DNA of 63,047 nucleotides from Gemmatimonadales bacterium (lineage in GTDB: Bacteria > Gemmatimonadota > Gemmatimonadetes > Gemmatimonadales > GWC2-71-9). The notes under the pieces were generated by a model that made no database searches, was not told where the DNA came from, and saw nothing but the letters and a program-made list of their open reading frames with translations. A program made the position numbers and the translations under genes. Below, piece after piece: positions 24,210 through 57,313 of the stretch (positions within the stretch are counted from its first letter, which is position 1; each line of letters starts with the position of its first letter). The DNA is taken from NCBI GenBank assembly GCA_013140635.1, contig JABFSM010000054.1:1-63047 (forward strand), given 5' to 3'.

Positions 24210-25400
24210 TTATCCGCCCAGCACTTCGTCGTAGACCGCCGCCGTTGCGTTGGCGTTGTTCGAAATGTCGAACCCCTGTGCCCGTTCTTCCGCCGCCCGT
24301 CCGATGGCGGCGCGAAAGCCCCCGTCTTCCGCGAGCCGGGCCAAATGCGCGGCCAGCTCCGCCGGGCGGGCGGGGTGAAAGAGGAGCCCCGAGCCTTCCG
24401 ACACGATTTCCGCCGGTCCGCCAAGCTCGGACGCCACGATCGGCTTTCCGAGCGCCATCGCTTCCACCACGACGAGGCCGAACGGTTCCGGGAAAGTCGA
24501 AGCATGGACGATGGCGTCGGCGGCCAGCATGAGATCCGGGATATCCCGACGTTCACCGAGAAAGACGAGGCGATCGGCAAGCCCGGCCTCGGCGATCCGC
24601 CGATCGAGCTCGGCCCGATAGCCGGCCGCATAGGAGGGCGTTGCCCCGGCAAACCGGACTTGAGTACGCGCCCGGATGCTTTCGGGGAGCGCGATCACCG
24701 CCTCGACCAAGACGTGCTGTCCCTTCCAGTCTTTGATATTGCCGGGCATCAACACGAAAAAATCATCTGGCCGCAGGCCGAGCCGCTGACGGGTGAGCTC
24801 GGGAGGGGTGGTGGCGCGGGCGCGGAATTCCTTGATGTTCGTGCCAAGGTGGATCACCCGGATGAGCTCCTCGGGGATGTCGCACTCGACCAGCCGCGAG
24901 GCGATATGCTGGCTGATGGCTATGACTCGGTCGAACCGGCCGGTCAGCCAACGCCGAAAGGCGGCCTCGTCTCGCCCGGCATCTCCCATGGCCGTCACGA
25001 GGCAGGGGCAGCCATGCCACTTGGCCGCCGGCAGCCAGTCGTCGCATCCGACCCGGGGCGAGTTGTTCAAATGCAGCAGGTCGATTCGGAGGTCGGCGAG
25101 CGCCCGGCGCCGCGACACCACCGCGCGCAGCATCTTGAGGGCGCGTTCCGGGATGGACCCCGATTCGTTGACACGGTTTTCGTACGACCGCACCGTCTCG
25201 AAGAGATGCGTCTCCACGCCGGCGGCGCGAAGGGCGGGCACGAATCGGTTGTCTTCGTAGAACATCACGACCGGCTCGTAGCGGGTCCGATCGAGATGCA
25301 CGGCGAGGTCGTACAAGGCCTGATACGATCCGCCGACGGTCCCATCCTCGTTCGCCTCGACGAAGAGAATTCGACGGGGCCGCGGCGCCGCCGTCGTCAC
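24210..25400 (-). CDS. GT4-family glycosyltransferase
   Basis: It lies in frame within listed ORF 24210..25907. I chose the GTG at 25400, which overlaps the Wzt stop (GTGA). Motifs RRILFVEANEDGTVGGS and STFPEPFGLVVVEAMALGKPIVASELGGPAEIV. Confidence 0.8.
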   Translation of the reverse strand: MTTAAPRPRRILFVEANEDGTVGGSYQALYDLAVHLDRTRYEPVVMFYEDNRFVPALRAAGVETHLFETVRSYENRVNESGSIPERALKMLRAVVSRRRALADLRIDLLHLNNSPRVGCDDWLPAAKWHGCPCLVTAMGDAGRDEAAFRRWLTGRFDRVIAISQHIASRLVECDIPEELIRVIHLGTNIKEFRARATTPPELTRQRLGLRPDDFFVLMPGNIKDWKGQHVLVEAVIALPESIRARTQVRFAGATPSYAAGYRAELDRRIAEAGLADRLVFLGERRDIPDLMLAADAIVHASTFPEPFGLVVVEAMALGKPIVASELGGPAEIVSEGSGLLFHPARPAELAAHLARLAEDGGFRAAIGRAAEERAQGFDISNNANATAAVYDEVLGG

Positions 25401-26638
25401 GACCGCCAGACCGCGCCTATGGGCGTTTCGGAGCCGCTCACGCCGCGGGCCGTGGTCGGCTTGAACTCCGCGTTCAGATTCACGTTGCCGAAAAACGGGG
25501 TCGACTCTCGCACGGGAACGAAGGCACTCGGGCCGTTGGCGGCGAACTGCTGCGCCAACACGTCGAAACTGCAGGTCTCGATCGTATAGGCGCCTGGGGG
25601 CAAGTTCATCTGGAGAGAGAGCCGGACCTCGAACGGTCCGCTCTCCGGAAGCGCGACCCCGGCCCGCTTGGTACTGGTGGCGAAGATGACCTTGCCGGTG
25701 CCCGGTTCTTCGATCCTCACGTCGACCGGATCGAGGTGCGGGGGCACTCCTTCCGGCGCGATGGTGCCGCGGATCGTGAGGTTGATGCGTTCGCCGGTCA
25801 CCACGCCGTCGCGCTCCGCCAGGAGGATCTGCTCGATATGCACCGGGCACGATCCGTTGCCGGCCGTCGTCCGGTCCACGTTCAGGTTGAGGTACGCCGA
25901 AACGCACTCCGTCGGCGAACCCTGCTGGACCATCGCGCCGCGGTTGAGCAGCAGCGCCTTGGTGCAGAGCTCCGTCACGCGCTCCAGCTGGTGCGAGACG
26001 ATGACCACCGGAATACTGCTCCGAATCATCTGGCGGAGCCGCTCGAAGGCGCGCTGCTGGAAGCGGAAGTCGCCCACCGCCAGGACCTCGTCGATGATCA
26101 GGACTTCCGGCTCCAGATGGGCGGCGATCGAGAAGCCCAAGCGAGCGTTCATGCCGCTCGAATACCGCTTGACGGGGGTGTCGATGAAGTCTTCCAGCTC
26201 CGCGAAGCCGACGATGTCGTCGAAGCGGCGCTTGATGTCGGCTTGGCGCATGCCCATGATGGCGCCCTGCAGCGCGACGTTTTCCCGGCCGGTCAAGTCC
26301 GGATGGAAACCCGCGGCGATTTCGATGAGGGCTCCGATCCGTCCACGCACCTCGGCCTGGCCCCTCGTCGGACGGATGATCTTGGTCAGCGTCTTGAGGA
26401 CGGTGGACTTGCCGGCCCCGTTCGGACCGATGATGCCCAGCGCCTCGCCGGGCTCGACCGAAAAGCTCAAGTCGCTGAGCGCCCAGAAGTCTCCCGTGGC
26501 CATCTCGTCTGCCGGCCGGCGCCTGCGGAAGAGGCGGCCGCCGAGCGCCGGGATGAGATCGCGCAGGCTGTCATGCACCTGGCCGCGCCGGAACCTCTTC
26601 CAGACATGGTCGAATTGCACCCGGGGGGTGTGGTTCAT
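25397..26638 (-). CDS. wzt: Polysaccharide ABC-exporter ATP-binding protein (Wzt type) with a C-terminal glycan-binding-like domain
   Basis: ATG at 26638 (MNHTPRVQF). Walker A GPNGAGKST, signature YSSGMNARL, Walker B LIIDEVLAVGD. A ~170-aa beta-rich C-terminal extension follows the NBD. Confidence 0.85.
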   Translation of the reverse strand: MNHTPRVQFDHVWKRFRRGQVHDSLRDLIPALGGRLFRRRRPADEMATGDFWALSDLSFSVEPGEALGIIGPNGAGKSTVLKTLTKIIRPTRGQAEVRGRIGALIEIAAGFHPDLTGRENVALQGAIMGMRQADIKRRFDDIVGFAELEDFIDTPVKRYSSGMNARLGFSIAAHLEPEVLIIDEVLAVGDFRFQQRAFERLRQMIRSSIPVVIVSHQLERVTELCTKALLLNRGAMVQQGSPTECVSAYLNLNVDRTTAGNGSCPVHIEQILLAERDGVVTGERINLTIRGTIAPEGVPPHLDPVDVRIEEPGTGKVIFATSTKRAGVALPESGPFEVRLSLQMNLPPGAYTIETCSFDVLAQQFAANGPSAFVPVRESTPFFGNVNLNAEFKPTTARGVSGSETPIGAVWRS

Positions 26639-26646
26639 CGGCAGGC

Positions 26647-27564
26647 TCACAAGTACTCGGCGAACAGGAATTCGAGCCGGTGAAAGAGCACCGCGCTCGC
26701 CGTGAGCAGGACCGCGGCCGCTCCAAATCCGTAGACGAGATACCACGGCTGCCAGATGATCGTTTCCACCCCGGACGCGGCGACCGTCGCGATCGGGGAA
26801 AGTAAGTTATGCCCCTCGATAACCGCTAGGCGCAGCCCCTCCAAAAACGGAGCCAGGGGATTCAACATGAGGAGCGTGGCGAACTTCGGCCCCCCCATGC
26901 CGGCGTCGAAAAAGACCGGAGTGAAGAAGATCCCGAAGGTGAGCATGATCTGCACCAGGTACTTGACGTCTCGCAGAAACAGATTGGCGCAGGACAAGAG
27001 CAGGCACATCGCGGCCGTGAAGGTGACGATGCCCAGGAGGAGGAACGGCAGCCAGACGAGCCCGGTGAGCGAAACCGACCCGGTCACGACGAGCAGCACG
27101 CTCACAACCCCGAGCGAGATCGCCGAGTCGAAGCACTGCGCCAGCATCGACGACAGCGGAAGGACCTCACGGGGAAAGTAGACCTTGCCGACGAGATTCA
27201 TGTTGCCGCTCAGACTGACCACGGCAAAGCCGATGCTCCCGACAAAGAACGACCAGGGAACCGCCTTGAGGGCGGTTCCGGCGACGTCGTTGAGCGTTAC
27301 CCCTCCCCCCGCCCGGGACAGGGCCAGGCGGACGACCACTCCGGCTGTTACGATGAGCATCGGCATGAGAATCGCCCACGCCACTCCCATCACGGCCTGC
27401 TTGTAGCGAACCCTGATGTCTCGCAGCGTCAGTTGCAGGAGCAGTTCTCGATGGCTCACCAGGTCGTGAACGATCTCGCGGAGGTCCGCCAGTGCGGTGA
27501 ACCTGGACGAGGGGGGCACAGCAGAGAGGTTTGGTTCCCCCTGGGCGCTCACGGTGTTTGACAT
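26647..27564 (-). CDS. wzm: ABC-2 type polysaccharide exporter permease (Wzm type)
   Basis: Motif: HRELLLQLTLRDIRVRYKQAVMGVAWAILMP, plus six hydrophobic helices. The start is ambiguous: ATG at 27564 preferred, with upstream in-frame starts at 27591 and 27615. Confidence 0.8.
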   Translation of the reverse strand: MSNTVSAQGEPNLSAVPPSSRFTALADLREIVHDLVSHRELLLQLTLRDIRVRYKQAVMGVAWAILMPMLIVTAGVVVRLALSRAGGGVTLNDVAGTALKAVPWSFFVGSIGFAVVSLSGNMNLVGKVYFPREVLPLSSMLAQCFDSAISLGVVSVLLVVTGSVSLTGLVWLPFLLLGIVTFTAAMCLLLSCANLFLRDVKYLVQIMLTFGIFFTPVFFDAGMGGPKFATLLMLNPLAPFLEGLRLAVIEGHNLLSPIATVAASGVETIIWQPWYLVYGFGAAAVLLTASAVLFHRLEFLFAEYL

Positions 27565-27580
27565 ATTCTGTTGTGGCAAA

Positions 27581-27595
27581 GCAAGATACATGCCG
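27581..27595 (-). promoter_or_regulatory. Candidate sigma-54 promoter facing wzm-wzt
   Basis: The minus strand reads CGGCAT-GTATC-TTGCT. The predicted TSS lies only ~5 nt before the ATG at 27564, so either the mRNA is nearly leaderless or a downstream GTG is the true start. Confidence 0.4.
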
Positions 27596-27683
27596 TTGAT
27601 TGCAGCGATTTGCACTCAATAATCGGGTCCCGGGTAGGGTCGAATTCTCGGGGATTTCCCCCGGGATGGCCCTGCCGGCCATT

Positions 27684-27699
27684 GGGCAGGAATCCTGCA
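27684..27699 (+). promoter_or_regulatory. Candidate sigma-54 promoter facing the methyltransferase gene
   Basis: gGGCAG-GAATC-CTGCA, with GG at 27685-86 and GC at 27697-98. It lies 55 nt upstream of the ATG at 27754. Confidence 0.4.
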
Positions 27700-27753
27700 A
27701 AGGCGCGGACTATTGCATCGGACTCAAATACCCCCATTCACCGGGTGAATGTG

Positions 27754-28563
27754 ATGACGCCGAATCCTCCCCACTCGATCGAGGCAGAAGAGCGCTTCGA
27801 AATTCAGCGCCACAACGAGCTGTACGACCGGCAGAGGCCCCAAGAGCTCGGCATCATGACCCCCTGGGACTGGGAGCGGTTCGACCAGATCCTGGAGCGC
27901 ACCGACCCCTACATCGAGTCGGTACGCCGGCTGGGCGATCTTCGCGGTAAGCGGGTATTCGATGTCGGCTGCGGCAGCGGCTGGCTCAGCATCATCCTGG
28001 CCAAACGGGGTGCGTTGGTCGATGGGATGGACATCTCACCCGAGGCGGTGCGCACGGCGGAGCTGCGGTCGGCCCGGAACGGGGTGGGCGATCAGTGCCG
28101 TTTTCGCGCCGGTTCGTGTTACGAACTCCCCTATGAAGACGGCCGCTTCGAGGTCGTCGCCGGCCAGAGCATTCTCCATCACGTCGGTGACAAGGCGAGG
28201 GCCGCCGCGGAATTGTTTCGGGTGATGCGCCCCAGCGCGCACGCCGTTTTCCACGAGCCGTTCGGCAACAGCCTGATGATGGAGCGGCTCCGGCGCCTGG
28301 TGCCGGTGCCGTCAGGCTCCCCCGACGATCCGGAGCAGTGGTCTCACCAGTTCAAATACAGCGACCTCCCACCCTTCCGGGCGCACTTCGAGGTCGAGAT
28401 CGAGGAATTCCAGTTCTTCTCGCGTCTCGATCGGGTCATCCGGTCGCCGAAGGTGCGGCTCGCCCTGGGACGCTTCGATCGTGCGCTTCTTGCCAAGGTC
28501 GGCTTTCTCCGGCAGTACGCCCGGGCGATCGTGATTGTCCTGCGGAAGCCACCCGCCCGCTAA
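27754..28563 (+). CDS. Class I SAM-dependent methyltransferase
   Basis: The ATG at 27754 lies in frame within listed ORF 27571..28563. Motif I: VFDVGCGSGWLSIILAKRGALVDGMDIS. Also FEVVAGQSILHHV. Confidence 0.8.
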   Translation: MTPNPPHSIEAEERFEIQRHNELYDRQRPQELGIMTPWDWERFDQILERTDPYIESVRRLGDLRGKRVFDVGCGSGWLSIILAKRGALVDGMDISPEAVRTAELRSARNGVGDQCRFRAGSCYELPYEDGRFEVVAGQSILHHVGDKARAAAELFRVMRPSAHAVFHEPFGNSLMMERLRRLVPVPSGSPDDPEQWSHQFKYSDLPPFRAHFEVEIEEFQFFSRLDRVIRSPKVRLALGRFDRALLAKVGFLRQYARAIVIVLRKPPAR

Positions 28564-29225
28564 CGGCCCGACTCACCACCCTCAGTTGCCGCCGCCGGCC
28601 GCCGTGCCTGGAGCCATGTCGCCAGTTGCAGCGCGTCTCGCTCCACCGCTTTGAACAGACGTGTGGCCTCGGGCTCATCTGCCGCGTATGGGTCGGGAAT
28701 GTCGGTGCCGCGATAGACGCCGCCCAGATCCACGCCGCCAAGGAGCACCACCCGGTCGTGGCCGCTAGGTGCGCGCGCCAGGATCTCCGCTTCGATCCCA
28801 TGGTCCAACGCCACGATGAGGTCGGCCCGGGATACCAGGGCGTAGTCGAAGGCCTGCGCCCGGTGGTCGGCTAGGGATAGCCCGAGGGTCCGGGCGTACG
28901 CGGCGGCGCGAGGGTCGGCCCCGGTGCCCGGCTTGGCGTTGATCCCCGCCGAAGTGACCGACACCGTCGTTCCCTCCTTGAGCCGGGCTCGCACGATGGC
29001 TTCCGCCAAAGCACTCCGCATGATGTTGCCGCGGCATACGAAGATGACCAGAGCCGGGTTGCCCAACCGCTCGGGGAATCGGTCCAGCTTTGAGAGGAGC
29101 CGGCGGGCAAGCACTCTCCGAATGAAGATCGTCCGCGAGCGGAGGGTGGGCAGCGCACGAAGCTGACCGACGAAAGCGGCCAGTCCGGGGGCTACCCGTT
29201 TGATGTGACGGCGAAGAGTGCTCAC
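28560..29225 (-). CDS. Low-molecular-weight protein-tyrosine phosphatase (Wzb-like) with an N-terminal extension
   Basis: C-x5-R-S loop VIFVCRGNIMRS and IPDPY. I chose the GTG at 29225 because the upstream 61 codons of listed ORF 28560..29408 lie in low-GC, non-coding-looking sequence. The start is uncertain. Confidence 0.7.
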   Translation of the reverse strand: MSTLRRHIKRVAPGLAAFVGQLRALPTLRSRTIFIRRVLARRLLSKLDRFPERLGNPALVIFVCRGNIMRSALAEAIVRARLKEGTTVSVTSAGINAKPGTGADPRAAAYARTLGLSLADHRAQAFDYALVSRADLIVALDHGIEAEILARAPSGHDRVVLLGGVDLGGVYRGTDIPDPYAADEPEATRLFKAVERDALQLATWLQARRPAAATEGGESGR

Positions 29226-29409
29226 CCGCCGAAAAGTCGTGGAATGCCTTGGCCAATTCAATGTGCGCCTGGTGCCGAGATCCAAGATAGGGGCAGAGAA
29301 CTGTCCTATCGTGGAACTGTATACGCTGCAATTACTTATGGCGTATTGCCCCCGAGGTGGCCGGTTCCGCCCCTTGGACCAAGCCACCGCGACAGCGCGG
29401 GGTCTCATT

Positions 29410-29425
29410 CGGCATAGGGTTTGCT
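29410..29425 (+). promoter_or_regulatory. Candidate sigma-54 promoter for the PqqD-B2-NTase-ABC operon
   Basis: CGGCAT-AGGGT-TTGCT, with GG at 29411-12 and GC at 29423-24. It lies 46 nt upstream of the ATG at 29471. It shares the -24/-12 hexamers with the site at 27581-95. Confidence 0.55.
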
Positions 29426-29470
29426 AAGTCCTTGGCCTAGTTCTGGATGCGCACCTAATCGGGATCGACG

Positions 29471-29737
29471 ATGACCACATACCGCCGCCACGCCGATCTT
29501 CGACTTACTTCCCTCGAAGGTGAAGGCGTCGTCCTCCACCTCGGCGCCCGGCGCTATTTCACCGTTACAGAGAGCGGACTCACCATCCTCGAAGCGCTGG
29601 TCGAGCCGAAGAGCTTCGACGCGCTCGTCGAGGCGATCCTCCACGAGTACGAGATCGACCGGCCCAAGGCCGAAGAGAGCACCCGCAAGTTCCTGGACGA
29701 GTGCCTCAAGGCCGCGTTGGTGGAAGAAGTGCCGTGA
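29471..29737 (+). CDS. PqqD-family protein (RiPP recognition element / lasso B1-like peptide chaperone)
   Basis: 88 aa. Motif: LEGEGVVLHLGARRYFTVTESGLTILEALVEPKSFDALVEAIL. This matches the typical PqqD/RRE length and pattern. Confidence 0.8.
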   Translation: MTTYRRHADLRLTSLEGEGVVLHLGARRYFTVTESGLTILEALVEPKSFDALVEAILHEYEIDRPKAEESTRKFLDECLKAALVEEVP

Positions 29738-30159
29738 CACGGTCCGGGGTCATGCGCTGGCGGATCCGGACCGTCGGAACCGTGCTGGTGGTGCCTCCGC
29801 TCTTGCACCTGCTGCCCCTGCACCGGTTGGCGCCTCGCCTGGGGCGCGGGAGGCGCTACCCATCCGATCCGGTGCTCACCGAGCGGATCGTCGGCTGGGT
29901 CGACCGGCTGCTCTGGCGTCTGCCCTGGCCCTGGCGTTTCACCTGCCTCAAGCGCGCCGCCGTCCTCTACGCGTTGCTCCGCCGCACCGGGATCGACATC
30001 GAGCTCTGGATCGGCGTCCGGCGCGACGAAACCCGGAGCCTGGCCGCGCACGCCTGGCTCGTGCATAACGGCTCTCCGTTTCTCGAGACCGGCGCCGAGC
30101 ACATTCCGTCGTTTCAGGTGATCGCCCGCTTTCCCGAAGCCGGCGCGGCCGTCCGATGA
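29734..30159 (+). CDS. Transglutaminase-like cysteine protease of the lasso-peptide B2 type
   Basis: The GTG at 29734 overlaps the pqqD-like stop (GTGA). Motif: FTCLKRAAVLYALLRRTGIDIELWIGVRRD...LAAHAWLVHNGSPF, the Cys...His core of McjB-C-terminal/B2 proteins. Confidence 0.75.
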   Translation: MTRSGVMRWRIRTVGTVLVVPPLLHLLPLHRLAPRLGRGRRYPSDPVLTERIVGWVDRLLWRLPWPWRFTCLKRAAVLYALLRRTGIDIELWIGVRRDETRSLAAHAWLVHNGSPFLETGAEHIPSFQVIARFPEAGAAVR

Positions 30160-31277
30160 CGCACCCCCCCATCGCGCTCCTGCTCCGCACCCTCCGGCTC
30201 CAGGGAGGCCTCACCGATCGGGAAGCGGCCGCGGAGTGGGCGCGGGTCGATATCCACGGGCTCGAGCGGCTGCTGGCGTTCGAGGGGGCGGCGCTCTGGC
30301 TTTACCGCCGACTGCAGGCGCTCGGTGCGGCTTCCGCGCCGGCCGGCGCGGAGGCGTTGCGCGCACTGGCCCATGGCATTGCGATGGCCAACATGCGTGC
30401 CGACGAGGAAGCCGCCGCGGTGCTCGCCCTGCTCGGCCGGGCCGGCATTCCGGTGGCTCTCATCAAGGGCCAGGCCCGCCGCGCCGCCGCGGAGCGATAC
30501 CCCTTTGCCAATGCGCGCGCCGTGGCCGATGTCGATCTGCTGGTGCCGGACGACGCGGCCGACCGGGGCTTCGAGCTGCTCGTGGCGGAGGGGTACGAGC
30601 CGAGCTTCGGCTGGGCGAGTCCCTGGAAGGTGGAACACCACCGCCCCGCGCTCTGGAATCACCGGCGGGTGGCCGTGGAACTCCACACCACCACCGGCGA
30701 TACCGTCCCGCCGGCGGAGGCGTGGCGCCGCGCCACGGCCCTGGCCGACGGCGTCACCTGGAACGGCGCCCCCCACCGCGTGCCTAACGCCACCGAACTG
30801 GTGTGGCAGGCGGCCGCCCACGCCCTCGGCGACGGAACCAAGGGGTACACGCTGAAGGCGTTCCTCAACGCGGCGGCGGTGCTGGCCCGCGCGCCGGAGA
30901 TCCGCTGGGACACGATCCGGGAGCGGATCGATGCCGGGGAAGTGGTCGATCTCCGCTCCAGGCGGCGGGTGCCGAAAGCGCGCCTCTGGAGCTGGCTTCG
31001 CACCGCCCAGGATCTGGCCGGCGGCCCCCTTCCCGGCATCCTGGCCGGCGCCGTTCCCTTTCCGCTCGAGCGCCATCTGGTGTGGCGCGCGGCGGTGTTG
31101 AACCGAGGGTTTGGGGAACGGGTCCGGGAACGGCTGCTCGAAGAGGGGGCCCGGACCGAGGCGCGGATGAGTCTCAGCCCCGCCGTGGCGGGCTCCGGGC
31201 CGATGCAGCGGCTCCGGCGACGGGGGTCCTCCCTGGCCGCGCGGCTGCTCTATAACGGGTGGCTCGCGTGGCGATAA
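30156..31277 (+). CDS. Uncharacterised nucleotidyltransferase family protein (NTP_transf_5-like)
   Basis: ATGA overlap with the B2 gene. Motifs VADVDLLVPDDAADRGFELLVAEGY and VAVELHTT. This family is recurrent in lasso and HprK-related cassettes. Confidence 0.7.
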   Translation: MTHPPIALLLRTLRLQGGLTDREAAAEWARVDIHGLERLLAFEGAALWLYRRLQALGAASAPAGAEALRALAHGIAMANMRADEEAAAVLALLGRAGIPVALIKGQARRAAAERYPFANARAVADVDLLVPDDAADRGFELLVAEGYEPSFGWASPWKVEHHRPALWNHRRVAVELHTTTGDTVPPAEAWRRATALADGVTWNGAPHRVPNATELVWQAAAHALGDGTKGYTLKAFLNAAAVLARAPEIRWDTIRERIDAGEVVDLRSRRRVPKARLWSWLRTAQDLAGGPLPGILAGAVPFPLERHLVWRAAVLNRGFGERVRERLLEEGARTEARMSLSPAVAGSGPMQRLRRRGSSLAARLLYNGWLAWR

Positions 31278-33103
31278 AGGCGGGGATCACCGCCGGCCTC
31301 ACCCATTTTCGCTCGTTGCTCCGCGCGCATCCGCGCCTCGTCGTTCGCTTCGTCCTGACCTCCCTCGGCCGCTCCGCCGCCGGCCTCGGGACCATCCTCT
31401 TGACGCGCGACTTTCTTGCCGGGGTGCTCGACCGAAGCGCCGGGGCGGGAAGCGGTCCGGCGCTTTCCCTCTGGGGCATCGCCGGCCTCCTGTTCGCCTC
31501 GTTCCTCTTTTCGAGCCTGCTCGCCTTCGACAATCGCGTCACCCAGCAGCGAATGGTGAAGGTCTTGGAGCTCGGGATGATGGAGCGGGTGATCCGCCAT
31601 CTGCTGCGGCTCTCGGTGGCGTTCTTCGACCGGCAGAGCCACGGCGATCTGCTCCAGGCGGTGCGCCAGGACGTGATGGCGCTCCGGACCCTCGTCTTCG
31701 CGCTGGCGGGGATCACCCTCGAAGCGGTCGGCGCGCTGGGGCTCTTCCTGGCCGCGCTCTGGCTCAGCCCGCGCCTGACGCTCTGGGCGCTGGTCGTGCT
31801 TCCGCTCTGCAGCATCCCCGTCATCGTCGCGGCCCGCCGGGCTCTGGCCCGGTCTCGCGAGCTCCGCCGCACCGGCTACGTGCTGTTCGACGCGATTCTT
31901 CAGCTCCTTCGCGGCATCCGGATCATCAAGGTGTACGGGGGCGACGAGGCCGAAGCGCGCACCACGATGGAAAAGGGGCGTCGTTACTTCGACGAGCTCA
32001 TCGAGATGGTCCGGATCAGCTCATATGCCCAGGTCGTGCTGGAAACGATCGGCGGGCTCGGGCTTGTCATCGTGGTGGTGGTGGGCGGCTTCGACGTGAT
32101 GGCCGGCCGGCTCGACTGGCCCTCCCTGCTCGCCTTTCTCCTGGCGCTCCGCGCGCTCTTCGGACCGGTCAACAACATCAACAGCGGGCTGGTGGCGCTG
32201 GGCGGGTTGGGTGCCTCGGTTGAGCGGGTCTCCGAGCTCCTTGCCACGACACCCGAGGTTCCCGAAGCGGCGGATGCCGACCCCCTTCCTCTTCCCCCTG
32301 CTCTGATCTCCTTCGACCGAGTCGGTTTTGCGTACCGCAACGAGCCGGTGCTCCGGGATGTCTCTTTTTCGGTGCGGGCCGGCGAAACGCTCGGGATCGC
32401 CGGGCCTTCAGGATCGGGGAAGACGACGCTCCTCAACCTCGTCGCGCGTTTCTACGATCCGGCCGAGGGGGCGATACGGTTCGATGGGAAGAATCTGACG
32501 GAGATCCGGCTTGCCGACCTCTATGCCAACTTGGGTATCGTGACCCAGGAGCCCTTCCTTTTTGCCACGACGGTCCGCGAAAACATCCGCTGCGGACGCC
32601 CCGCCGCGGCGGATGGTGAGGTCGAGGAGGCCGCCCGCGCAGCGGGAATTCATGAGGAGATTCTCGCCTTGTCGGGAGGCTACGAGACGGTCGTCGGCGT
32701 TGGCGGCGTCGGGCTCTCCGGCGGCCAAGCCCAGCGAATCAACATCGCCCGCGCGCTGGTGAAGAACCCGCCGATCCTCCTCCTCGACGAGGCCACCGCG
32801 AGCCTCGACTCGATGTCCGAGCTCGTGGTGCAGCAGGCATTGGAGCGGCTCATGGTCGGTCGCACGACCTTCGTGGTGGCGCATCGCCTCTCAACGCTGC
32901 GCCATGCCTCTCGCATTCTGGTGCTGGAAGGAGGACGCATTGCCGGTCTCGGACCCCATGGTGAGCTCCTCGAGACCTGTCCCCTCTACCGGAGAATGTG
33001 GGACCTTCAGCAACTAGCGGGAATGGAGCCAGCCCCTATTGGGAATACTGTTGCACTTGTGCAGCAAATACCCGATTTTCCCCCTCAGATTGGACCCTCC
33101 TGA
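31259..33103 (+). CDS. ABC exporter, fused TMD-NBD half-transporter (MsbA/McjD-like)
   Basis: Six N-terminal helices. Walker A GPSGSGKTT, signature LSGGQAQR, Walker B ILLLDEATASLD. It overlaps the NTase stop. Confidence 0.85.
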   Translation: MARVAIKAGITAGLTHFRSLLRAHPRLVVRFVLTSLGRSAAGLGTILLTRDFLAGVLDRSAGAGSGPALSLWGIAGLLFASFLFSSLLAFDNRVTQQRMVKVLELGMMERVIRHLLRLSVAFFDRQSHGDLLQAVRQDVMALRTLVFALAGITLEAVGALGLFLAALWLSPRLTLWALVVLPLCSIPVIVAARRALARSRELRRTGYVLFDAILQLLRGIRIIKVYGGDEAEARTTMEKGRRYFDELIEMVRISSYAQVVLETIGGLGLVIVVVVGGFDVMAGRLDWPSLLAFLLALRALFGPVNNINSGLVALGGLGASVERVSELLATTPEVPEAADADPLPLPPALISFDRVGFAYRNEPVLRDVSFSVRAGETLGIAGPSGSGKTTLLNLVARFYDPAEGAIRFDGKNLTEIRLADLYANLGIVTQEPFLFATTVRENIRCGRPAAADGEVEEAARAAGIHEEILALSGGYETVVGVGGVGLSGGQAQRINIARALVKNPPILLLDEATASLDSMSELVVQQALERLMVGRTTFVVAHRLSTLRHASRILVLEGGRIAGLGPHGELLETCPLYRRMWDLQQLAGMEPAPIGNTVALVQQIPDFPPQIGPS

Positions 33104-47428: not shown

Positions 47429-47471
47429 TTTGTTGTGGGCGTCCACTTACAACCTGATCGGCTCGGCGGCC

Positions 47472-49007
47472 ATGAGCAGTCCACTGGTTACGGATCCAAA
47501 CCGCTCCTACGCACCCGGAAGCGACAGCTCCGCGGCGCGCGATCCGCTTTCGATCCCCCCGGAGATCAAAGCCAGTATTCGGATTCTCCTGGTCGACGAC
47601 GAACGGACCCTTCGGGAGAGTTGCGCCAGCGTCCTTCAGATGGACGGCTTCTCGGTAACGCTGGCGGGGCGGGGTGAGGAGGCGGTCGACCTCCTCAAGA
47701 ATCGGAAGTTCGACATCATGCTGGTCGACCTGTATATGTCGCAGGTTTCCGGCCTCGAGTTGCTGCGGGCCGCGCTCGATTCCAATCGAGACATCATCGT
47801 GGTCGTCATGACCGGCAATCCCAGCGTGTCGACCAGCATCGAAGCGCTCCGTGCCGGCGCCTGGGACTACCTTCCGAAGCCGTTCTCGGCGACCCATCTC
47901 CAGGTCTTGATCGGCCGAGCATCGCACGCGGTCATGGTCAATCGCGAAGCCAGCGAGCTTCGCCAGCGGGTTCTTCAGCAGCACAGCCACAGCGATACTC
48001 TGACCCTCATCGGCATTTCACCGCCATTCCGGAAGGCAGTCGAGTTGGCGCGGAAGGTGGCCCTGACCGACGCGAGCGTCTTCATCAGCGGGGAAAGCGG
48101 AACCGGCAAAGAAGTCATTGCCCAGTTCATTCACCAGCACAGCCGCCGGTCGCGCAAGCCGCTCGTGGCCATCAACTGCGCGGCGCTTCCGGAACCGCTC
48201 CTGGAATCGGAGATGTTCGGCCACCGGAAGGGCTCCTTTACCGGCGCCGATCGTGATAAGCCCGGCCTGCTCGAGACCGCGAATGGCGGCTCCTTTTTCC
48301 TGGACGAGCTCACCGAAATGCCGCTGGCGTTGCAGGCTAAGTTGCTGCGAGTCATTCAAGACGGTGTCGTGCGCCGAGTCGGCTCCGAGTCGACCGACGC
48401 CCAAATCGACGTCCGCTTCATTTCCGCCACCAACCGCGATCCGCAGCAGGCGGTGGATAGCGGCGTGCTTCGCGGCGACTTGTTCTACCGGCTCCGCGTG
48501 GTGCCGATTGCCCTACCGCCGCTTCGGAAGCGCCAAGAGGACATTCCGCTCTTGGCCAATCACTTCCTCACCTACTATTGGCACCGGCACCGCCAGATGC
48601 CCGACCGGTGTCCGCGGCTCAGCGAGGAGAGCATCGCCTTCCTCAAGTCGCGCCCGTGGCGCGGCAATGTGCGGGAGCTGCAGAACGTCATCGAGCACAC
48701 GACGGTCCTGATGGATCCGGATCAAGTGATCCAGCCGGGCGACATCCCGCTCTACGAGGACGGCGCCGGCGAACCCGCGGTGGAGGCTCGGCCGGTTCCG
48801 ACACCGATGGGGAACGAACCGTATCATGTGGCGAAGGACCGAGTCGTGGCCGATTTCGAGAAGCAGTACCTTACGGCGCTGGTCGAGCGCGCCGCGGGCA
48901 ACATGTCGAAGGCGGCGCGGCTTGCGGGGGTCGACCGTACCACGCTCTATCGTTTGATCGACAAGCACCAGTTGCTGCGGGCCGACGGTGAAGGATCGGT
49001 CGAGTGA
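47472..49007 (+). CDS. NtrC-family sigma-54-dependent response regulator (REC-AAA+-HTH; candidate PEP-CTERM-box regulator, PrsR-like)
   Basis: REC motif ILLVDDERTLRE...DIMLVDLYM. AAA+ motifs GESGTGKEV, FFLDELTEM and ESEMFGHRKGSFTGA (GAFTGA variant). HTH motif NMSKAARLAGVDRTTLYRLI. Confidence 0.85.
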   Translation: MSSPLVTDPNRSYAPGSDSSAARDPLSIPPEIKASIRILLVDDERTLRESCASVLQMDGFSVTLAGRGEEAVDLLKNRKFDIMLVDLYMSQVSGLELLRAALDSNRDIIVVVMTGNPSVSTSIEALRAGAWDYLPKPFSATHLQVLIGRASHAVMVNREASELRQRVLQQHSHSDTLTLIGISPPFRKAVELARKVALTDASVFISGESGTGKEVIAQFIHQHSRRSRKPLVAINCAALPEPLLESEMFGHRKGSFTGADRDKPGLLETANGGSFFLDELTEMPLALQAKLLRVIQDGVVRRVGSESTDAQIDVRFISATNRDPQQAVDSGVLRGDLFYRLRVVPIALPPLRKRQEDIPLLANHFLTYYWHRHRQMPDRCPRLSEESIAFLKSRPWRGNVRELQNVIEHTTVLMDPDQVIQPGDIPLYEDGAGEPAVEARPVPTPMGNEPYHVAKDRVVADFEKQYLTALVERAAGNMSKAARLAGVDRTTLYRLIDKHQLLRADGEGSVE

Positions 49008-50086
49008 GCGCTCCGACCGAGGTTGAAACGGGACTGGTGGAGGCTCTGGAGGCGGCCTGCCGGCAAGTACCGGCGGAGTCCGGCGGCGCGCTGCTCGCCG
49101 ATGCCGCCTCGAGCGAAGAAGTCTCCGCGCTGGTGGGCGTTATTTCTTCCGGGGTACTGGCCCACCTTCGCGGCGAGGCGATGCCTGCGTTGCCCCGGAC
49201 CCATCTGGCCCGCCGCATCCTGCAAAGCTTCCGCAAACACTATCTCGAAGGCGCGGCCGCTCAGTCGCCCCCGGCGTCGAGCGCCACCCTCTTGGCCGGC
49301 CTCGGGTCGATCGAAGCGGTGGCGGCGGCGCTCGAGGGAGACTGGCGCCAGCGGTTCAGCGACCGTCTCTCCGGTCCCGACGGCCTCGAGTTGGTCGTCG
49401 AGGTGGCGCACGATCTTCGCTCCCCGTTGACCTCGATTCTCTTCCTGGCGGAGACGCTGCGCCGCGGGCGAAGCGGCCCGCTGACGCCGCTTCAGGAGCG
49501 CCAGCTCGGGTTGATCTATGCGGCGGCGTTCGGGCTTACCTCGGTGGCCAGCGACGTCATCGAGCTCGCGCGCGGCGGCGAACGCCAGGTCGATCTCGAT
49601 CCGCTCCCATTCTCGGTCGCCGATATTCTCGAGTCGGTGCGCGACATCGTCCAGCCGATTGCCGAGGAGAAGGGCCTCGAGGTGCAGCTGGTCTCGAACG
49701 AAGAGGGGCTCCGGGTCGGACACCCTGTGGCCCTGAGCCGGGTGCTGCTCAACCTGACCACGAACGCCCTCAAGTTCACCGATGAGGGCAACGTCGAGAT
49801 GCGGGCCGAGCCCCTTGCCGACACCCGGCTCGAATTTTCGGTGCGGGACACGGGGCGGGGCATTCCTCCGAATTCGATGGCGATGCTCTTCGAGCCTTTC
49901 CGGCGGCGGCAGCGAGATCGGGAGTATGCGTTCTCCGGGTCGGGGCTCGGCCTCTCGATTTGCCGGAAATTGGTGGAGGCGATGGGGTCCGAGCTCAAGG
50001 TGGAAACCGAGGCGGGGAAAGGCACTACCTTCTCGTTCGTGTTGGCGCTTCCCCGGGTCAATCCGGAGGATGGACAGCTCAGCTGA
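49004..50086 (+). CDS. Soluble sensor histidine kinase (HisKA + HATPase_c, no TM segment)
   Basis: GTGA overlap with the regulator gene. H-box VAHDLRSPLTSI, N-box LLNLTTNALKFT, G-boxes VRDTGRGIP and GSGLGLSICRKLV. Confidence 0.85.
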   Translation: MSAPTEVETGLVEALEAACRQVPAESGGALLADAASSEEVSALVGVISSGVLAHLRGEAMPALPRTHLARRILQSFRKHYLEGAAAQSPPASSATLLAGLGSIEAVAAALEGDWRQRFSDRLSGPDGLELVVEVAHDLRSPLTSILFLAETLRRGRSGPLTPLQERQLGLIYAAAFGLTSVASDVIELARGGERQVDLDPLPFSVADILESVRDIVQPIAEEKGLEVQLVSNEEGLRVGHPVALSRVLLNLTTNALKFTDEGNVEMRAEPLADTRLEFSVRDTGRGIPPNSMAMLFEPFRRRQRDREYAFSGSGLGLSICRKLVEAMGSELKVETEAGKGTTFSFVLALPRVNPEDGQLS

Positions 50087-50360
50087 CAACCTCGGACCTA
50101 CCGTGTCCCGGCTCGGCTAGGTAGGTTTGGCGCGCGGACGGTTGGGCGGCCATTGGGGCCGCCACCCGAGTCCGAGCGATTCAACAGCGGTATCGCCCCG
50201 AGGGTCCCGTACCGAATTCCTGGCACCACCACAACGTGGTCCGGGAAGCGGAAGGGACTCAGGAAGGGGCGGGCCGCGGAGACGACAGCAACACGTGAGT
50301 CACCCGACCCATCGGGCCGGCCGCCAGGCCTTGGCCCAGGCGCAAAGCGCCCCATCACCC

Positions 50361-56055: not shown

Positions 56056-57009
56056 TCACCTGCGGGCGAGTTCTACCAGAAGATCGGGCCTCTCGAAGAG
56101 ATCTGGGCCGAGTGTGAGATGGTAGCAGCGCGCCTGGTTTGCCAATCGCCCGAGGGCGTCGAGGTGTTCCTGGGAGTGCACCGGCTCGTACAGTACCCAC
56201 TGCGACCACTTTACCAGGCCCGCGAGCACGTCGCGAGGGGCCATAGGTGCCAGTTCGGTTTGCTCGCCGATCGTCGGGAAGGCGATAATCTCAGGGAGGA
56301 TCTCCGGAACCCAATGTCCACCGAGCTCCTCAGGCCAGTACCCCTCCTTTGCCCGCTCCGGCAGGGGCAGGCCCCCTTTCGCCCCTAGTAGGCTTCGACC
56401 ACCGCTCCGAAGCGCGATTCTCGACCGGAACCCCATGACGGCGATCTTCCGGCCATGCGCCGCCAGGAACCCGATGTCGTCGGTTCCGATACCCCAGCCC
56501 CGCGAAGCGACGAGCGCCGTGGTGGTGGACTTTCCGCAGTTCGAATCGCCGGCAATGAGCCAACCGTGGCCTTCGGGGTCGCGGAGGGCCGCCCCGTGCA
56601 CGTGATACCAGCCAAGCCGCCGGAGCACGAAGACGAGGACGACGAGCAGGAATGTCCTCGCGGCCTCGGCGATGTGGGGCACCGCCTCGGGGCTGAACCA
56701 GAGCGCGACCTCCGGCCGAGTTGGATGTACGACAGCCATCGCCGGCGCACTGGTCCACATCACTCTGACGGTGCCGGAGGGGGGGCCCGCTTGAATGACC
56801 ACGGTCGGTTGGCGGAGGGGTTCCCGCGTATCGCTGCCGAAGGGCGGGGTGGGAGACACGGTTACCGAAATGCGAAACCGGCCCGGCCACGCCAGCTCGG
56901 ACTCCGTAAGCCAGGCGCGCAGCCCCGCCTCGACCGCCGGGTCGGCGCAATCCAGCTCGTAGCCCCCGGCGTTGCCGGGTGAGGTCTCGACAATCTCTGG
57001 TCTGGTCAC
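56056..57009 (-). CDS. HPr-kinase-related P-loop protein (HprK-related kinase type)
   Basis: Motif: HGAALRDPEGHGWLIAGDSNCGKSTTTALVASRGWGIGTDDIGF (HprK C-terminal-domain-like P-loop). I preferred the GTG at 57009 (~317 aa) because codons upstream (57010-57225) cross low-GC sequence. An alternative start is the ATG at 57102. Confidence 0.7.
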   Translation of the reverse strand: MTRPEIVETSPGNAGGYELDCADPAVEAGLRAWLTESELAWPGRFRISVTVSPTPPFGSDTREPLRQPTVVIQAGPPSGTVRVMWTSAPAMAVVHPTRPEVALWFSPEAVPHIAEAARTFLLVVLVFVLRRLGWYHVHGAALRDPEGHGWLIAGDSNCGKSTTTALVASRGWGIGTDDIGFLAAHGRKIAVMGFRSRIALRSGGRSLLGAKGGLPLPERAKEGYWPEELGGHWVPEILPEIIAFPTIGEQTELAPMAPRDVLAGLVKWSQWVLYEPVHSQEHLDALGRLANQARCYHLTLGPDLFERPDLLVELARR

Positions 57010-57160: not shown

Positions 57161-57313
57161 TTAGCACCAGCCGAAGTACCGGTACAACCAATTGCACTCG
57201 GGCGCTTGCGTCTGGCTGGTCTCACCCCCGCCCGACACGAGCGTCTGCGTCAGCACCGCCAACGCCGCTTCCTCGTGCAGGACCGGTTCAACAAACTGCC
57301 GCTTCTGCCGCAT
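57161..57313 (-). CDS. 50-aa candidate RiPP precursor peptide (lasso-type leader signature)
   Basis: I translated MRQKRQFVEPVLHEEAALAVLTQTLVSGGGETSQTQAPECNWLYRYFGWC* myself. The Shine-Dalgarno is strong (GGAGGAAGAACC-ATG). 42 of 49 third positions are G/C, matching coding DNA here. It lies directly upstream of, and co-directional with, the HprK-like gene. Confidence 0.6.
   Translation of the reverse strand: MRQKRQFVEPVLHEEAALAVLTQTLVSGGGETSQTQAPECNWLYRYFGWC

What the first reader, a model, noticed from the sequence alone, without database searches (positions are those of the whole stretch)
29410..33103. Lasso-like maturation cassette (PqqD/B1, B2 protease, nucleotidyltransferase, ABC exporter) with no cyclase and no adjacent precursor, embedded in an EPS island
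Seen in sequence: four translationally coupled genes (GTGA and ATGA overlaps, plus a 19-nt start/stop overlap) lie behind a -24/-12 promoter. They encode an 88-aa PqqD/RRE protein, a 141-aa Cys/His transglutaminase-like protein (TCLKRAAVLYALLRR...AAHAWLV), an NTP_transf_5-like nucleotidyltransferase (DVDLLVP...ELH) and a TMD-NBD ABC exporter. Established knowledge: B1+B2+D, optionally with an HPr-kinase-like kinase and a nucleotidyltransferase, are the accessory genes of split-B lasso peptide clusters, for example the phosphorylated paeninodin type. The defining asparagine-synthetase-like lasso cyclase (C protein) is absent from all 63 kb. From memory, NCBIfam/TIGRFAM models named 'HprK-related kinase A/B' and 'HPr-rel-A system PqqD family peptide chaperone' describe an uncharacterised cassette seen in exosortase/PEP-CTERM-bearing genomes. 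I do not assert accession numbers. Inference: this may be a leader-cleaving, tailoring and exporting RiPP-like pathway that yields a linear or otherwise-cyclised peptide, co-regulated with EPS production. In the B2 protein the usual third catalytic Asp after HAW is not obvious (FLETGAEH), which is worth checking.
Basis: partly seen in the sequence, partly recalled or inferred. Interest (0 to 1): 0.85.

Follow-up and report, generated by a model that had tools for sequence, protein, structure and literature searches.

The report
Cyclase-free lasso-like peptide pathway
This Gemmatimonadales contig encodes a complete lasso-type peptide maturation kit with no ring-closing enzyme, so it most likely makes short linear phosphorylated peptides; that extends a class described in 2026 in Bacillota to a new phylum and a different leader protease.

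Summary
Four overlapping genes at 29471-33103 encode PqqD/RRE, a lasso-type B2 cysteine protease, a PF14907 nucleotidyltransferase and an MsbA-like ABC exporter. They sit in an XrtA-type EPS island, and the 63 kb hold no Asn-synthetase-like cyclase.

The two "missing" parts lie 24 kb away on the minus strand:
- a 50-aa precursor (57313-57161);
- an HprK/PEPCK-fold kinase (57009-56056).

In 29 of 31 other Gemmatimonadota loci with the kinase, kinase-B1-B2 are contiguous and cyclase-free. N follows in nearly all and a precursor ORF was found upstream in most.

All 33 tabulated precursors carry a lasso-type leader: F-17 (one Y), P-14 and T-2. Their cores are short (median 9 aa), always have a Ser in the first six residues, and rarely meet lasso-core rules.

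B2 keeps Cys, His and a Glu at His+12.

The closest known system is the Bacillota LPP family (Popov et al. 2026), which uses a SipW-like peptidase instead of B2. The cassette is not a member of the NCBIfam HPr-rel-A models.

Verdict: a new B2-dependent variant of a known kind. The chemistry and the link to EPS are inferred, not shown.

The parts
57161..57313 (-). Precursor peptide gene (50 aa): MRQKRQFVEPVLHEEAALAVLTQ | TLVSGGGETSQTQAPECNWLYRYFGWC. The leader has F-17, P-14, L-12 and T-2. The predicted core is 27 aa with Ser4.
   Evidence: ORF preceded by GGAGGA. tblastn matches to the small ORFs upstream of the kinase in L004 (2.4e-8) and L001 (2.6e-7). It is the only six-frame match in the window to the lasso-leader pattern. 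It fits the 33-precursor family alignment.
56056..57009 (-). HprK/PEPCK-fold P-loop kinase (317 aa, GDSNCGKSTT), the predicted Ser kinase of the core peptide.
   Evidence: 64% identity to the L004 orthologue, E 2e-113. Same boundaries as NCBI HOP28_03035. Only weak hits to TIGR04352 and PF07475. Profile against PDB sequences: HprK 1jb1, E 0.007. AF2 model pLDDT 94.6. Foldseek top hits are PEPCK and HprK/P, with TMt 0.54-0.60 for the latter.
29410..29425 (+). Candidate sigma-54 (-24/-12) promoter CGGCATAGGGTTTGCT, 46 nt upstream of PqqD.
   Evidence: 9/12 match, with a background of about 10% per 300 nt. Supported indirectly by the family-wide enrichment upstream of precursors (8/23 loci at >=10/12 against 2.2% background) and by the enrichment of such sites in the window's intergenic DNA.
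29471..29737 (+). B1: stand-alone PqqD-type RiPP recognition element (88 aa).
   Evidence: PF05402 1.8e-12. Lasso PqqD NCBIfam models score 41.8 and 33.6 bits, below their cutoffs. Best PDB sequence match is TbiB1 5v1u, 7e-7.
29734..30159 (+). B2: transglutaminase-like Cys protease (141 aa from the GTG; an ATG at 29752 gives 135 aa), the predicted leader peptidase.
   Evidence: PF13471 1.2e-18; NF033537 62.8 bits, above its cutoff of 33. Cys (TCLKR), His (AHAWL) and Glu at His+12 are conserved in at least 90% of 26 orthologues.
30156..31277 (+). N: PF14907 nucleotidyltransferase-fold enzyme (373 aa) with an invariant D125-V-D127 and E175/H177.
   Evidence: PF14907 1.3e-28. Invariant columns in 42 sequences. 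AF2 model pLDDT 93.5. Foldseek hits: ANT(2'')-Ia (TMt 0.63-0.71), LnuA and FKRP.
31259..33103 (+). D: MsbA-like half-transporter ABC exporter (614 aa, TMD-NBD, no peptidase domain).
   Evidence: PF00664 plus PF00005; best NCBIfam hit MsbA_rel at 367 bits, below cutoff. Orthologues lie directly after N in L004 (73% identity), L007 (64%) and L033.
25397..27615 (-). Wzt/Wzm ABC-2 glycan exporter pair. This is a candidate associated module, not a proven part.
   Evidence: Pfam ABC_tran plus ABC2_membrane. Homologues adjoin the cassette in L006 (overlapping N), L019, L021, L024, L026 and L028.
47430..49007 (+). Sigma-54 enhancer-binding response regulator (a candidate regulator). Its partner histidine kinase is at 49004-50086.
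   Evidence: Sigma54_activat 1.2e-64. PEP_resp_reg TIGR02915 scores 360 bits, below its cutoff of 502.6.

Best explanation
The window holds a complete, cyclase-free, lasso-derived RiPP pathway split over two loci.

Proposed steps (all inferred unless marked as shown):
1. The 50-aa precursor (57313-57161, minus strand) carries a lasso-type leader.
2. The PqqD/B1 protein binds the leader's FxxPxL motif and presents the peptide to the other enzymes.
3. The HprK-like kinase phosphorylates the conserved Ser near the start of the core (Ser4 of TLVSGGG...).
4. The PF14907 nucleotidyltransferase-fold enzyme adds a further group to that phospho-Ser. This would be a phosphodiester-linked sugar or alditol, as PsmN does with hexose.
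5. The B2 Cys-His-Glu protease cuts after Thr(-2)-Gln(-1).
6. The MsbA-like ABC exporter releases a short linear modified peptide.
7. Expression is probably sigma-54 dependent and coordinated with the surrounding EPS genes.

Shown here: gene content, homology, folds, motif conservation and neighbourhood conservation. Inferred: every chemical step, the order of steps, the export route and the regulation.
For: Gene content and folds:
- All six components are present and intact.
- The kinase has an HprK/PEPCK-type fold.
- N has an ANT(2'')/FKRP-like nucleotidyltransferase fold and an invariant DxD. The corresponding DxD double mutant of PsmN abolishes hexose addition to phospho-Ser in pseudomycoidin (PMC6993621).
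- B2 retains Cys, His and Glu at His+12.

Neighbourhood conservation:
- K-B1-B2 are contiguous in 29 of 31 other kinase-bearing Gemmatimonadota loci, and N follows in nearly all.
- None of these loci has a lasso cyclase.

Precursors (33 tabulated, from 24 loci):
- F-17 in 32/33, P-14 in 33/33, L-12 in 31/33, T-2 in 33/33. This matches the [Y/W]xxPx[L/V/I..] RRE-binding motif and the penultimate-Thr rule of lasso leaders (PMC13381572; PMC10368454 abstract).
- Ser within the first 6 core residues in 33/33.
- Core median 9 aa; only 3/33 meet minimal lasso-core rules.

Published precedent: LPP in Bacillota has the same enzyme set minus the cyclase and is polyphosphorylated on core Ser3 (PMC13381572).

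Exporter: the ABC gene overlaps N in the window, L004 and L033.

Sigma-54:
- 8/23 loci have a >=10/12 match upstream of the first precursor, against a 2.2% background (P about 2e-8).
- 11/29 sites in the window fall in the 9.9% of DNA that is intergenic (P about 6e-5).
Against: - No biochemical data exist for any member of this Gemmatimonadota family.
- The kinase matches HprK families only weakly by sequence.
- The function of N is unproven even in the model systems: LppN was inactive in the heterologous host.
- The window's own -24/-12 sites are weak, at 8-9/12.
- The window's arrangement is atypical, with A-K separated from B1-B2-N-D. Co-function is therefore assumed from the orthologous contiguous operons.
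- Only 4 loci, including the window, carry the MsbA-like exporter, so export may use other routes.
- One relative (L033) has a PP-loop Asn_synthase-like gene next to the precursor.
- The rest of this MAG's genome could not be searched.
Confidence: 0.78

Rival explanations
1. It is an ordinary split lasso-peptide cluster. A canonical Asn-synthetase-like cyclase encoded elsewhere in the genome closes the ring, and the product is a phosphorylated lasso peptide of the paeninodin or pseudomycoidin type.
For: - B1, B2, kinase, N and D are exactly the accessory set of paeninodin-like clusters (PMC6993621; PMC13381572).
- B2 passes the NCBIfam lasso B2 cutoff.
- The window's own core has Glu at position 8.
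- L033 has a PP-loop Asn_synthase-like gene beside the operon.
- The genome outside this contig could not be searched.
Against: - No cyclase lies within 10 kb in about 33 loci, including loci on 0.5-5 Mb contigs.
- 30 of 33 predicted cores fail minimal lasso rules. Many are 4-9 aa long, too short to thread.
- The L033 protein scores 16.6 bits against a cutoff of 525 for the lasso cyclase model, and it has no homologue in any other locus.
Confidence: 0.07
2. The cassette serves polysaccharide rather than peptide biology. The ABC protein would flip lipid-linked oligosaccharide, N would modify a glycan, and the PqqD/B2 proteins would have no peptide substrate.
For: - The cassette is embedded in an EPS island with XrtA-type genes.
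- The best NCBIfam hits for the ABC protein are MsbA-like.
- Wzm/Wzt pairs recur beside the cassette.
- N resembles FKRP, a glycan-modifying phosphotransferase.
Against: - A conserved precursor gene with an invariant RRE-binding motif and Thr-2 travels with the cassette in at least 24 loci.
- Several loci (L001, L003, L031, L032) lie outside any glycan locus.
- B1 is most similar to a structurally characterised leader-binding RRE, TbiB1.
- The B2 catalytic residues are conserved.
Confidence: 0.05
3. In this particular genome the system is a rearranged, non-functional remnant, because the operon has been broken into A-K and B1-B2-N-D.
For: The split arrangement is seen in only this window, and possibly in L010, out of about 33 loci. 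The local sigma-54-like sites are weak.
Against: - All six ORFs are intact, with high GC3 and conserved catalytic residues.
- Each half has its own intergenic region holding a -24/-12-like site 46-54 nt upstream.
- The precursor has a good RBS.
- The junction is reproduced in an independent assembly.
Confidence: 0.06

Closest known systems
LPP (linear polyphosphorylated peptide) clusters of Bacillota, lppA-K-B-S-D-N of Paenibacillus alginolyticus (Popov et al., Nat Commun 2026, PMC13381572)
   Same: - No macrolactam cyclase.
- Same enzyme set otherwise: HprK-like kinase, discrete RRE, uncharacterised NTP transferase and MsbA-like exporter.
- The leader carries a lasso-like xxP RRE-binding motif.
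- A Ser close to the start of the core: Ser3 is polyphosphorylated in LPP, and Ser is present within core positions 1-6 in all 33 precursors here.
- Frequently embedded in capsule or EPS loci.
   Different: - The leader peptidase here is the lasso-type B2 Cys protease, not the SipW-like signal peptidase LppS. No such peptidase turned up in the window's Pfam scans.
- The phylum is Gemmatimonadota, whereas LPP is stated to be restricted to Bacillota.
- The leader motif is FxxPxL...T-2 rather than YxxPxVLxHQxIxFETxxS.
- Cores are much shorter: median 9 aa against 45 aa for LppA.
- The window's B1 is closer in sequence to lasso B1 proteins (5v1u; 9x90_B) than to PDB entry 9x8z_B, labelled 'PqqD family protein'. 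I presume 9x8z_B is LppB but did not verify it. If so, this hints at an independent origin.
Paeninodin/pseudomycoidin-type phosphorylated lasso peptide clusters (A, C, B1, B2, K, N, D)
   Same: B1, B2, HprK-like kinase, PF14907 N with its DxD motif, and the ABC exporter. The lasso-type leader with a penultimate Thr is also shared.
   Different: There is no cyclase C. Cores mostly cannot form a lasso. The conserved Ser is near the N-terminus of the core, not at its C-terminus.
NCBIfam 'HPr-rel-A system'
   Same: An HprK-like kinase together with a PqqD-family protein, in an uncharacterised peptide-maturation context.
   Different: The kinase scores 16.4 bits against a cutoff of 200. The PqqD protein gives no hit to the system's PqqD model at E<=1. 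It is not a member.

Membership tests
Canonical lasso peptide biosynthetic cluster | Asparagine-synthetase-like macrolactam cyclase (C protein) | tested here: not met
   No PF00733 hit among the window genes scanned. No SGGxDS ORF in the window. None in about 33 related loci, apart from a sub-threshold PP-loop protein in L033.
Canonical lasso peptide biosynthetic cluster | Core peptide able to form a lasso: residue 1 is G/A/S/C, Asp/Glu at position 7-9, and a tail long enough to thread | tested here: not met
   Only 3 of 33 predicted cores meet both residue rules. Median core length is 9 aa, range 4-32. The window's core starts with Thr and has Glu8.
Canonical lasso peptide biosynthetic cluster | Leader with the [Y/W]xxPxL RRE-binding motif and a penultimate Thr | tested here: met
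   F-17 in 32/33 (Y in 1/33), P-14 in 33/33, L-12 in 31/33, T-2 in 33/33. Motif definition taken from PMC13381572 and the PMC10368454 abstract.
Canonical lasso peptide biosynthetic cluster | Split B protein: a PqqD-type RRE (B1) plus a transglutaminase-like Cys protease (B2) | tested here: met
   PF05402 and PF13471. NF033537 scores 62.8, above its cutoff of 33. B1 falls below the NCBIfam lasso_PqqD cutoffs. Cys/His/Glu are conserved.
LPP family (Popov et al. 2026) | SipW-like archaeal-type signal peptidase I (LppS) as the leader peptidase | tested here: not met
   No signal-peptidase family appeared in the Pfam scans of window genes. Every related locus has B2 at that position.
LPP family (Popov et al. 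2026) | HprK-like kinase, discrete RRE, NTP transferase and MsbA-like exporter, with no cyclase | tested here: met
   The exporter is present in only 4 loci, including the window.
LPP family (Popov et al. 2026) | Precursor N-terminal consensus YxxPxVLxHQxIxFETxxS | tested here: inconclusive
   Only the xxPx(L/V) part and a downstream T...S are shared. The consensus here is KKxFVxPxLxEEAxLAxxTL followed by a Ser 1-6 residues later. No LPP sequences were available for alignment.
LPP family (Popov et al. 2026) | Polyphosphorylation of a Ser near the N-terminus of the core | not testable with these tools
   Needs mass spectrometry. The only support here is the 33/33 conservation of an early core Ser.
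NCBIfam HPr-rel-A system (TIGR04352 and partner models) | Kinase scoring above the TIGR04352 cutoff, and PqqD matching the system's PqqD model | tested here: not met
   TIGR04352 scores 16.4 bits against a cutoff of 200. No HPr-rel-A PqqD model appears among the hits at E<=1.
XrtA/PEP-CTERM-type EPS locus (genomic context) | XrtA-associated marker genes and an exosortase | tested here: inconclusive
   TIGR03006 (339.8 against a cutoff of 276.2) and TIGR03019 (290.9 against 260.35) pass. PEP_resp_reg, pepcterm_TyrKin, pepcterm_export and PEP_O_lig_1 fall below their cutoffs. No exosortase domain was seen in the window scans.

The most novel reading that the evidence does not exclude
The short phospho-Ser peptides may not be free antibiotics or signals. 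They could be primers, caps or carriers that are covalently joined to polysaccharide through a phosphodiester. In this reading N acts as an FKRP/LicD-like phospho-sugar transferase and the island's glycosyltransferases extend the product. The conjugate would leave through the co-located Wzm/Wzt or MsbA-type ABC systems under sigma-54 control. That would make it a ribosomal peptide-glycan conjugate pathway that arose from lasso machinery independently of Bacillota LPP.
Probability: 0.12. Interest if true: 0.85.

Novelty: new variant of a known kind. Interest (0 to 1): 0.62.

Why it matters
- It would show that losing the cyclase from phosphorylated-lasso machinery is not peculiar to Bacillota. 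Here it has also happened, probably independently, in Gemmatimonadota, with the lasso B2 protease retained.
- It would define a family of very short linear peptides (4-32 aa) with one conserved modifiable Ser, often encoded in tandem arrays. That is a tractable system for working out what PF14907 enzymes do.
- It flags a systematic mis-annotation. NCBI names these B2 genes "lasso peptide biosynthesis B2 protein" although their clusters cannot make lassos.
- The recurring adjacency to Wzm/Wzt and EPS genes, here and in LPP, makes a link between these peptides and the cell envelope or biofilm testable.

Tried and rejected
- NCBIfam HPr-rel-A membership: rejected, scores far below the cutoffs.
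- Searching for a cyclase: Pfam scans, a PP-loop motif scan and tblastn with the L033 Asn_synthase-like protein all found nothing in the window.
- Sequence search of B2 and N against PDB chains: no useful hits.
- Sigma-70 promoter and intrinsic terminator scans around both loci: nothing above chance.
- A window-wide count of TGGCAC-N5-TTGC with 2 mismatches: not enriched overall, 47 against 50 expected. Enrichment appears only when position relative to genes is considered.
- Rfam and tRNA scans of the window: empty.
- My first GC3-based gene picker missed the kinase and two XrtA-type genes. They were recovered by tblastn and ORF inspection.
- Looking for relatives outside Gemmatimonadota with the three protein searches and the genome scan: only Gemmatimonadota, plus one distant cyanobacterial kinase (L030, 27% identity). 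The methods favour close relatives, so absence elsewhere is not shown.
- A simple inversion to explain the split operon was considered by hand from the coordinates (no tool call). It does not restore the A-K-B1 order.
- Literature phrase searches for cyclase-less lasso clusters returned only the LPP paper.

Full report
**Observation**

| Gene | Coordinates | Junction |
|---|---|---|
| PqqD | 29471-29737 | — |
| B2 | GTG 29734-30159 | GTGA overlap |
| N | 30156-31277 | ATGA overlap |
| ABC exporter | GTG 31259-33103 | 19-nt overlap |

The domain assignments hold:
- PqqD matches PF05402 (1.8e-12).
- B2 matches PF13471 (1.2e-18) and NF033537 lasso_biosyn_B2 at 62.8 bits, above its cutoff of 33.
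- N matches PF14907 (1.3e-28).
- The exporter has ABC_membrane plus ABC_tran, its best NCBIfam hits are MsbA-like, and it has no C39 peptidase domain.

The window is the whole 63,047-bp contig of a Gemmatimonadales MAG; N is NCBI HOP28_02930.

I predicted genes from GC3 and scanned nearly all of them against Pfam. This confirms an EPS island:
- several GT4 genes, MBOAT and Wzy_C;
- Wzm/Wzt and LMW-PTP;
- Bac_transf, Poly_export and a Wzc-like tyrosine kinase;
- a sigma-54 activator with a histidine kinase.

Two genes at 3070-4943 pass the curated cutoffs of XrtA/PEP-CTERM-associated families (TIGR03006 and TIGR03019). No exosortase was seen.

There is no Asn_synthase domain, no SGGxDS PP-loop ORF and no tblastn match to an Asn_synthase-like neighbour of a relative.

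**The missing parts are in the window**

I looked up neighbourhoods of N homologues. They showed a fixed operon: a small ORF (29-40 aa), a roughly 310-aa protein with no Pfam hit, then PqqD, Transglut_core3 and NTP_transf_5, sometimes followed by an ABC exporter.

tblastn of those two upstream genes against the window found both on the minus strand, 24 kb from the cassette:
- The roughly 310-aa protein maps to 57009-56056 (64% identity to L004, E 2e-113). It has the same boundaries as NCBI HOP28_03035.
- The small ORF maps to 57313-57161, preceded by GGAGGA.

An independent assembly (L034) is 100% identical to window 24869-30669. It reproduces the LMW-PTP-PqqD junction, so the split is not an artefact of this contig.

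**What the parts are**

*Kinase.* The 317-aa protein has a P-loop (GDSNCGKSTT).
- By sequence it matches HprK families only marginally: TIGR04352 at 16.4 bits against a cutoff of 200, and PF07475 at 15 bits.
- A family profile finds HprK chains first in the PDB (1jb1, E 0.007).
- A confident AF2 model (pLDDT 94.6) matches PEP carboxykinases and HprK/P (TMt 0.54-0.60 on 2qmh, 3tqf and 1kkl). From established knowledge, these share one P-loop kinase fold.

*N.* It has an invariant D125-V-D127 and E175/H177 across 42 sequences.
- Its model (pLDDT 93.5) resembles ANT(2'')-Ia, LnuA and the ribitol-phosphate transferase FKRP.
- The E-values are marginal (the best is 8.7e-3).
- In pseudomycoidin, the homologue PsmN is required to add hexose to phospho-Ser, and a DxD double mutant is inactive (PMC6993621).

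*B2.* Across 26 orthologues the Cys of TCLKR, the His of AHAWL and a Glu twelve residues after that His are conserved in at least 90%.
- From memory, unverified here, the McjB triad is C150/H182/D194, which has the same His-to-acid spacing.

*B1.* Its best solved relative is the lasso RRE TbiB1 (5v1u, 7e-7). Next come 9x90_B, labelled "lasso peptide biosynthesis PqqD family chaperone" (1e-4), and 9x8z_B, labelled "PqqD family protein" (0.62).

**The family**

A genome scan with a kinase alignment returned 22 Gemmatimonadota loci (Gemmatimonadales and Longimicrobiales) and one distant cyanobacterial hit.

Adding the look-ups gives 31 other Gemmatimonadota loci with the kinase. K-B1-B2 are contiguous in 29 of them, and N follows in nearly all. 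The exceptions are:
- L012, which lacks N;
- L015, where N is in two pieces;
- L010, which has K alone.

The MsbA-like exporter follows N only in the window, L004, L007 and L033.

Homologues of the window's Wzt/Wzm adjoin the cassette in L006 (overlapping N), L019, L021, L024, L026 and L028.

About 4 of 10 Pfam-annotated neighbourhoods are glycan loci. The rest are unrelated housekeeping contexts.

No locus has a lasso cyclase. L033 has a 386-aa PP-loop protein upstream of the precursor. It scores 16.6 bits against a cutoff of 525 for the lasso cyclase model and has no homologue in any other locus.

**The precursors**

I tabulated 33 precursors from 24 loci. Three more, from L032 and L035, fit the same pattern.

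| Feature | Count |
|---|---|
| F at -17 | 32/33 (Y in the other) |
| P at -14 | 33/33 |
| L at -12 | 31/33 |
| T at -2 | 33/33 |
| L or Q at -1 | 33/33 |
| Ser within first six core residues | 33/33 |
| Meets minimal lasso-core rules | 3/33 |

- E-10, E-9, A-8 and L-6 are also strongly conserved.
- This is the lasso leader architecture: the [Y/W]xxPx[L/V/I...] RRE-binding motif (PMC13381572) plus the penultimate Thr used by the leader peptidase (PMC10368454 abstract).
- Downstream of the predicted cut the cores are hypervariable and short, with a median of 9 aa and a range of 4-32.
- The conserved Ser usually follows a hydrophobic residue and often precedes Gly-Gly.
- Several loci encode tandem arrays: four precursors in L013 and five in L016.
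- The window's core is TLVSGGGETSQTQAPECNWLYRYFGWC. Like those of its closest relative L035, it ends in a Cys-flanked aromatic stretch.

**Regulation**

The site at 29410-29425 is a 9/12 match to TGGCACG-N4-TTGCW with correct GG/GC spacing. About 10% of random 300-nt windows do as well, so it proves nothing alone. Two controls raise its prior:
- Upstream of the first precursor, 8 of 23 related loci have a >=10/12 match, against a 2.2% background (P about 2e-8). L001, L009 and L027 have perfect matches.
- In the window, 11 of 29 sites scoring >=9 fall in the 9.9% of DNA that is intergenic (P about 6e-5). Six of them lie 46-90 nt upstream of operon starts, including PqqD, the kinase, Wzc, Poly_export and the epimerase.

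A sigma-54 activator sits at 47430-49007. Co-regulation with EPS is therefore plausible but inferred.

**Mechanism (inferred)**

1. B1 binds the FxxPxL motif.
2. The kinase phosphorylates the early core Ser.
3. N extends the phosphate with a sugar-like group.
4. B2 cuts after T-2/x-1.
5. The ABC exporter, or in other genomes Wzm/Wzt or an unlinked pump, exports the linear product.

The order of steps is unknown. In LPP, phosphorylation precedes efficient cleavage.

**Comparison with known systems**

The nearest described system is the LPP family of Bacillota (PMC13381572).
- It has a precursor, the HprK kinase LppK, the RRE LppB, the MsbA-like LppD and the NTP transferase LppN.
- It has no cyclase, sits in capsule loci, and carries polyphosphate on core Ser3.
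- Its defining leader peptidase is a SipW-like signal peptidase, and the authors state that it is restricted to Bacillota.

The present family keeps the lasso B2 protease, has a different leader consensus and much shorter cores, and lives in Gemmatimonadota. Its B1 looks closer to lasso B1 proteins than to the PDB entry I presume to be LppB. It therefore works like LPP but fails LPP's defining peptidase feature. It also fails the lasso family's defining cyclase and core features, and it is not an HPr-rel-A system.

I found no paper in the held library that describes it. NCBI annotates its B2 genes as lasso B2. A survey of marine Gemmatimonadota counts "lasso peptide" BGCs in 29 MAGs (PMC11316326). 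I did not test whether those include this cassette.

**Verdict**

This is a real, conserved and apparently complete pathway. It is a new B2-dependent variant of the recently described cyclase-free, phosphorylated linear RiPPs. No chemistry is proven, and the rest of this genome could not be searched.

Noticed in passing
L033:8086-9246: A 386-aa PP-loop (SGGRDS) Asn_synthase-like gene lies directly upstream of the precursor-K-B1-B2-N-D operon in the relative whose kinase is closest among long contigs. It is unique among about 33 loci and far below the lasso-cyclase cutoff. That locus's core (ISDGGDADNTG...) has Asp8.
   Followed up: partly
L013:9297-9843; L016:1136-1612; also L012, L018, L022, L025, L035: Tandem arrays of 2-5 precursor genes share near-identical leaders and differ in their short cores, as in multi-precursor RiPP clusters.
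   Followed up: partly
window 57161-57240 (-); L035:1183-1769: The window's core and both cores of its closest relative end in Cys-flanked stretches: ECNWLYRYFGWC and ECGQWEWIWNNDC (aromatic-rich), and HHCGERCAH. These may be disulfide loops, and most other family members lack them.
   Followed up: no
window 25397-27615 (-); L006:11119-13151; L019, L021, L024, L026, L028: Wzm/Wzt ABC-2 glycan exporter pairs recur next to the cassette. In L006 they overlap N by 4 nt and are followed by VanZ and LMW-PTP, genes that are also present in the window.
   Followed up: partly
window 27684, 29410, 33115 (+); 43374, 47215, 57063 (-): -24/-12-like sites lie 46-90 nt upstream of at least six operon starts in the island. 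Overall, 11 of 29 sites scoring >=9/12 fall in the 9.9% of DNA that is intergenic (P about 6e-5), which suggests a sigma-54 regulon.
   Followed up: partly
window 3070-4943 (+): An XrtA-system polysaccharide deacetylase (TIGR03006) and a FemAB-family XrtA/PEP-CTERM-associated protein (TIGR03019) pass their curated cutoffs, yet no exosortase gene was seen in the 63 kb.
   Followed up: partly
window 28965-29470: A roughly 500-nt intergenic region separates the LMW-PTP start (as called in L034) from PqqD. It shows no detectable remnant of the precursor or kinase genes that occupy this position in relatives.
   Followed up: partly
L007:7568-9301; L028:5274-7869: Some loci carry duplicated kinases (L007, L028) and a duplicated B1 (L028) ahead of B2-N.
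   Followed up: no
L030:247-1386: A Spirulinaceae contig encodes a distant kinase homologue (27% identity) behind a precursor with a textbook lasso leader (PYHTPQLQEYGTINTLTQ). It is probably a true kinase-bearing lasso cluster, but the contig is too short to tell.
   Followed up: no
window 6484-10236 (+): A 1250-aa lipoprotein-like protein carries many Big_2-type repeats and a roughly 300-aa C-terminal domain with no Pfam hit, at the left side of the EPS island.
   Followed up: no
window 50127-51863 (+): A NYN-domain protein has long Arg/Gly- and Ala/Pro-rich low-complexity regions. It sits between the two-component system and a methylpurine-DNA glycosylase gene.
   Followed up: no
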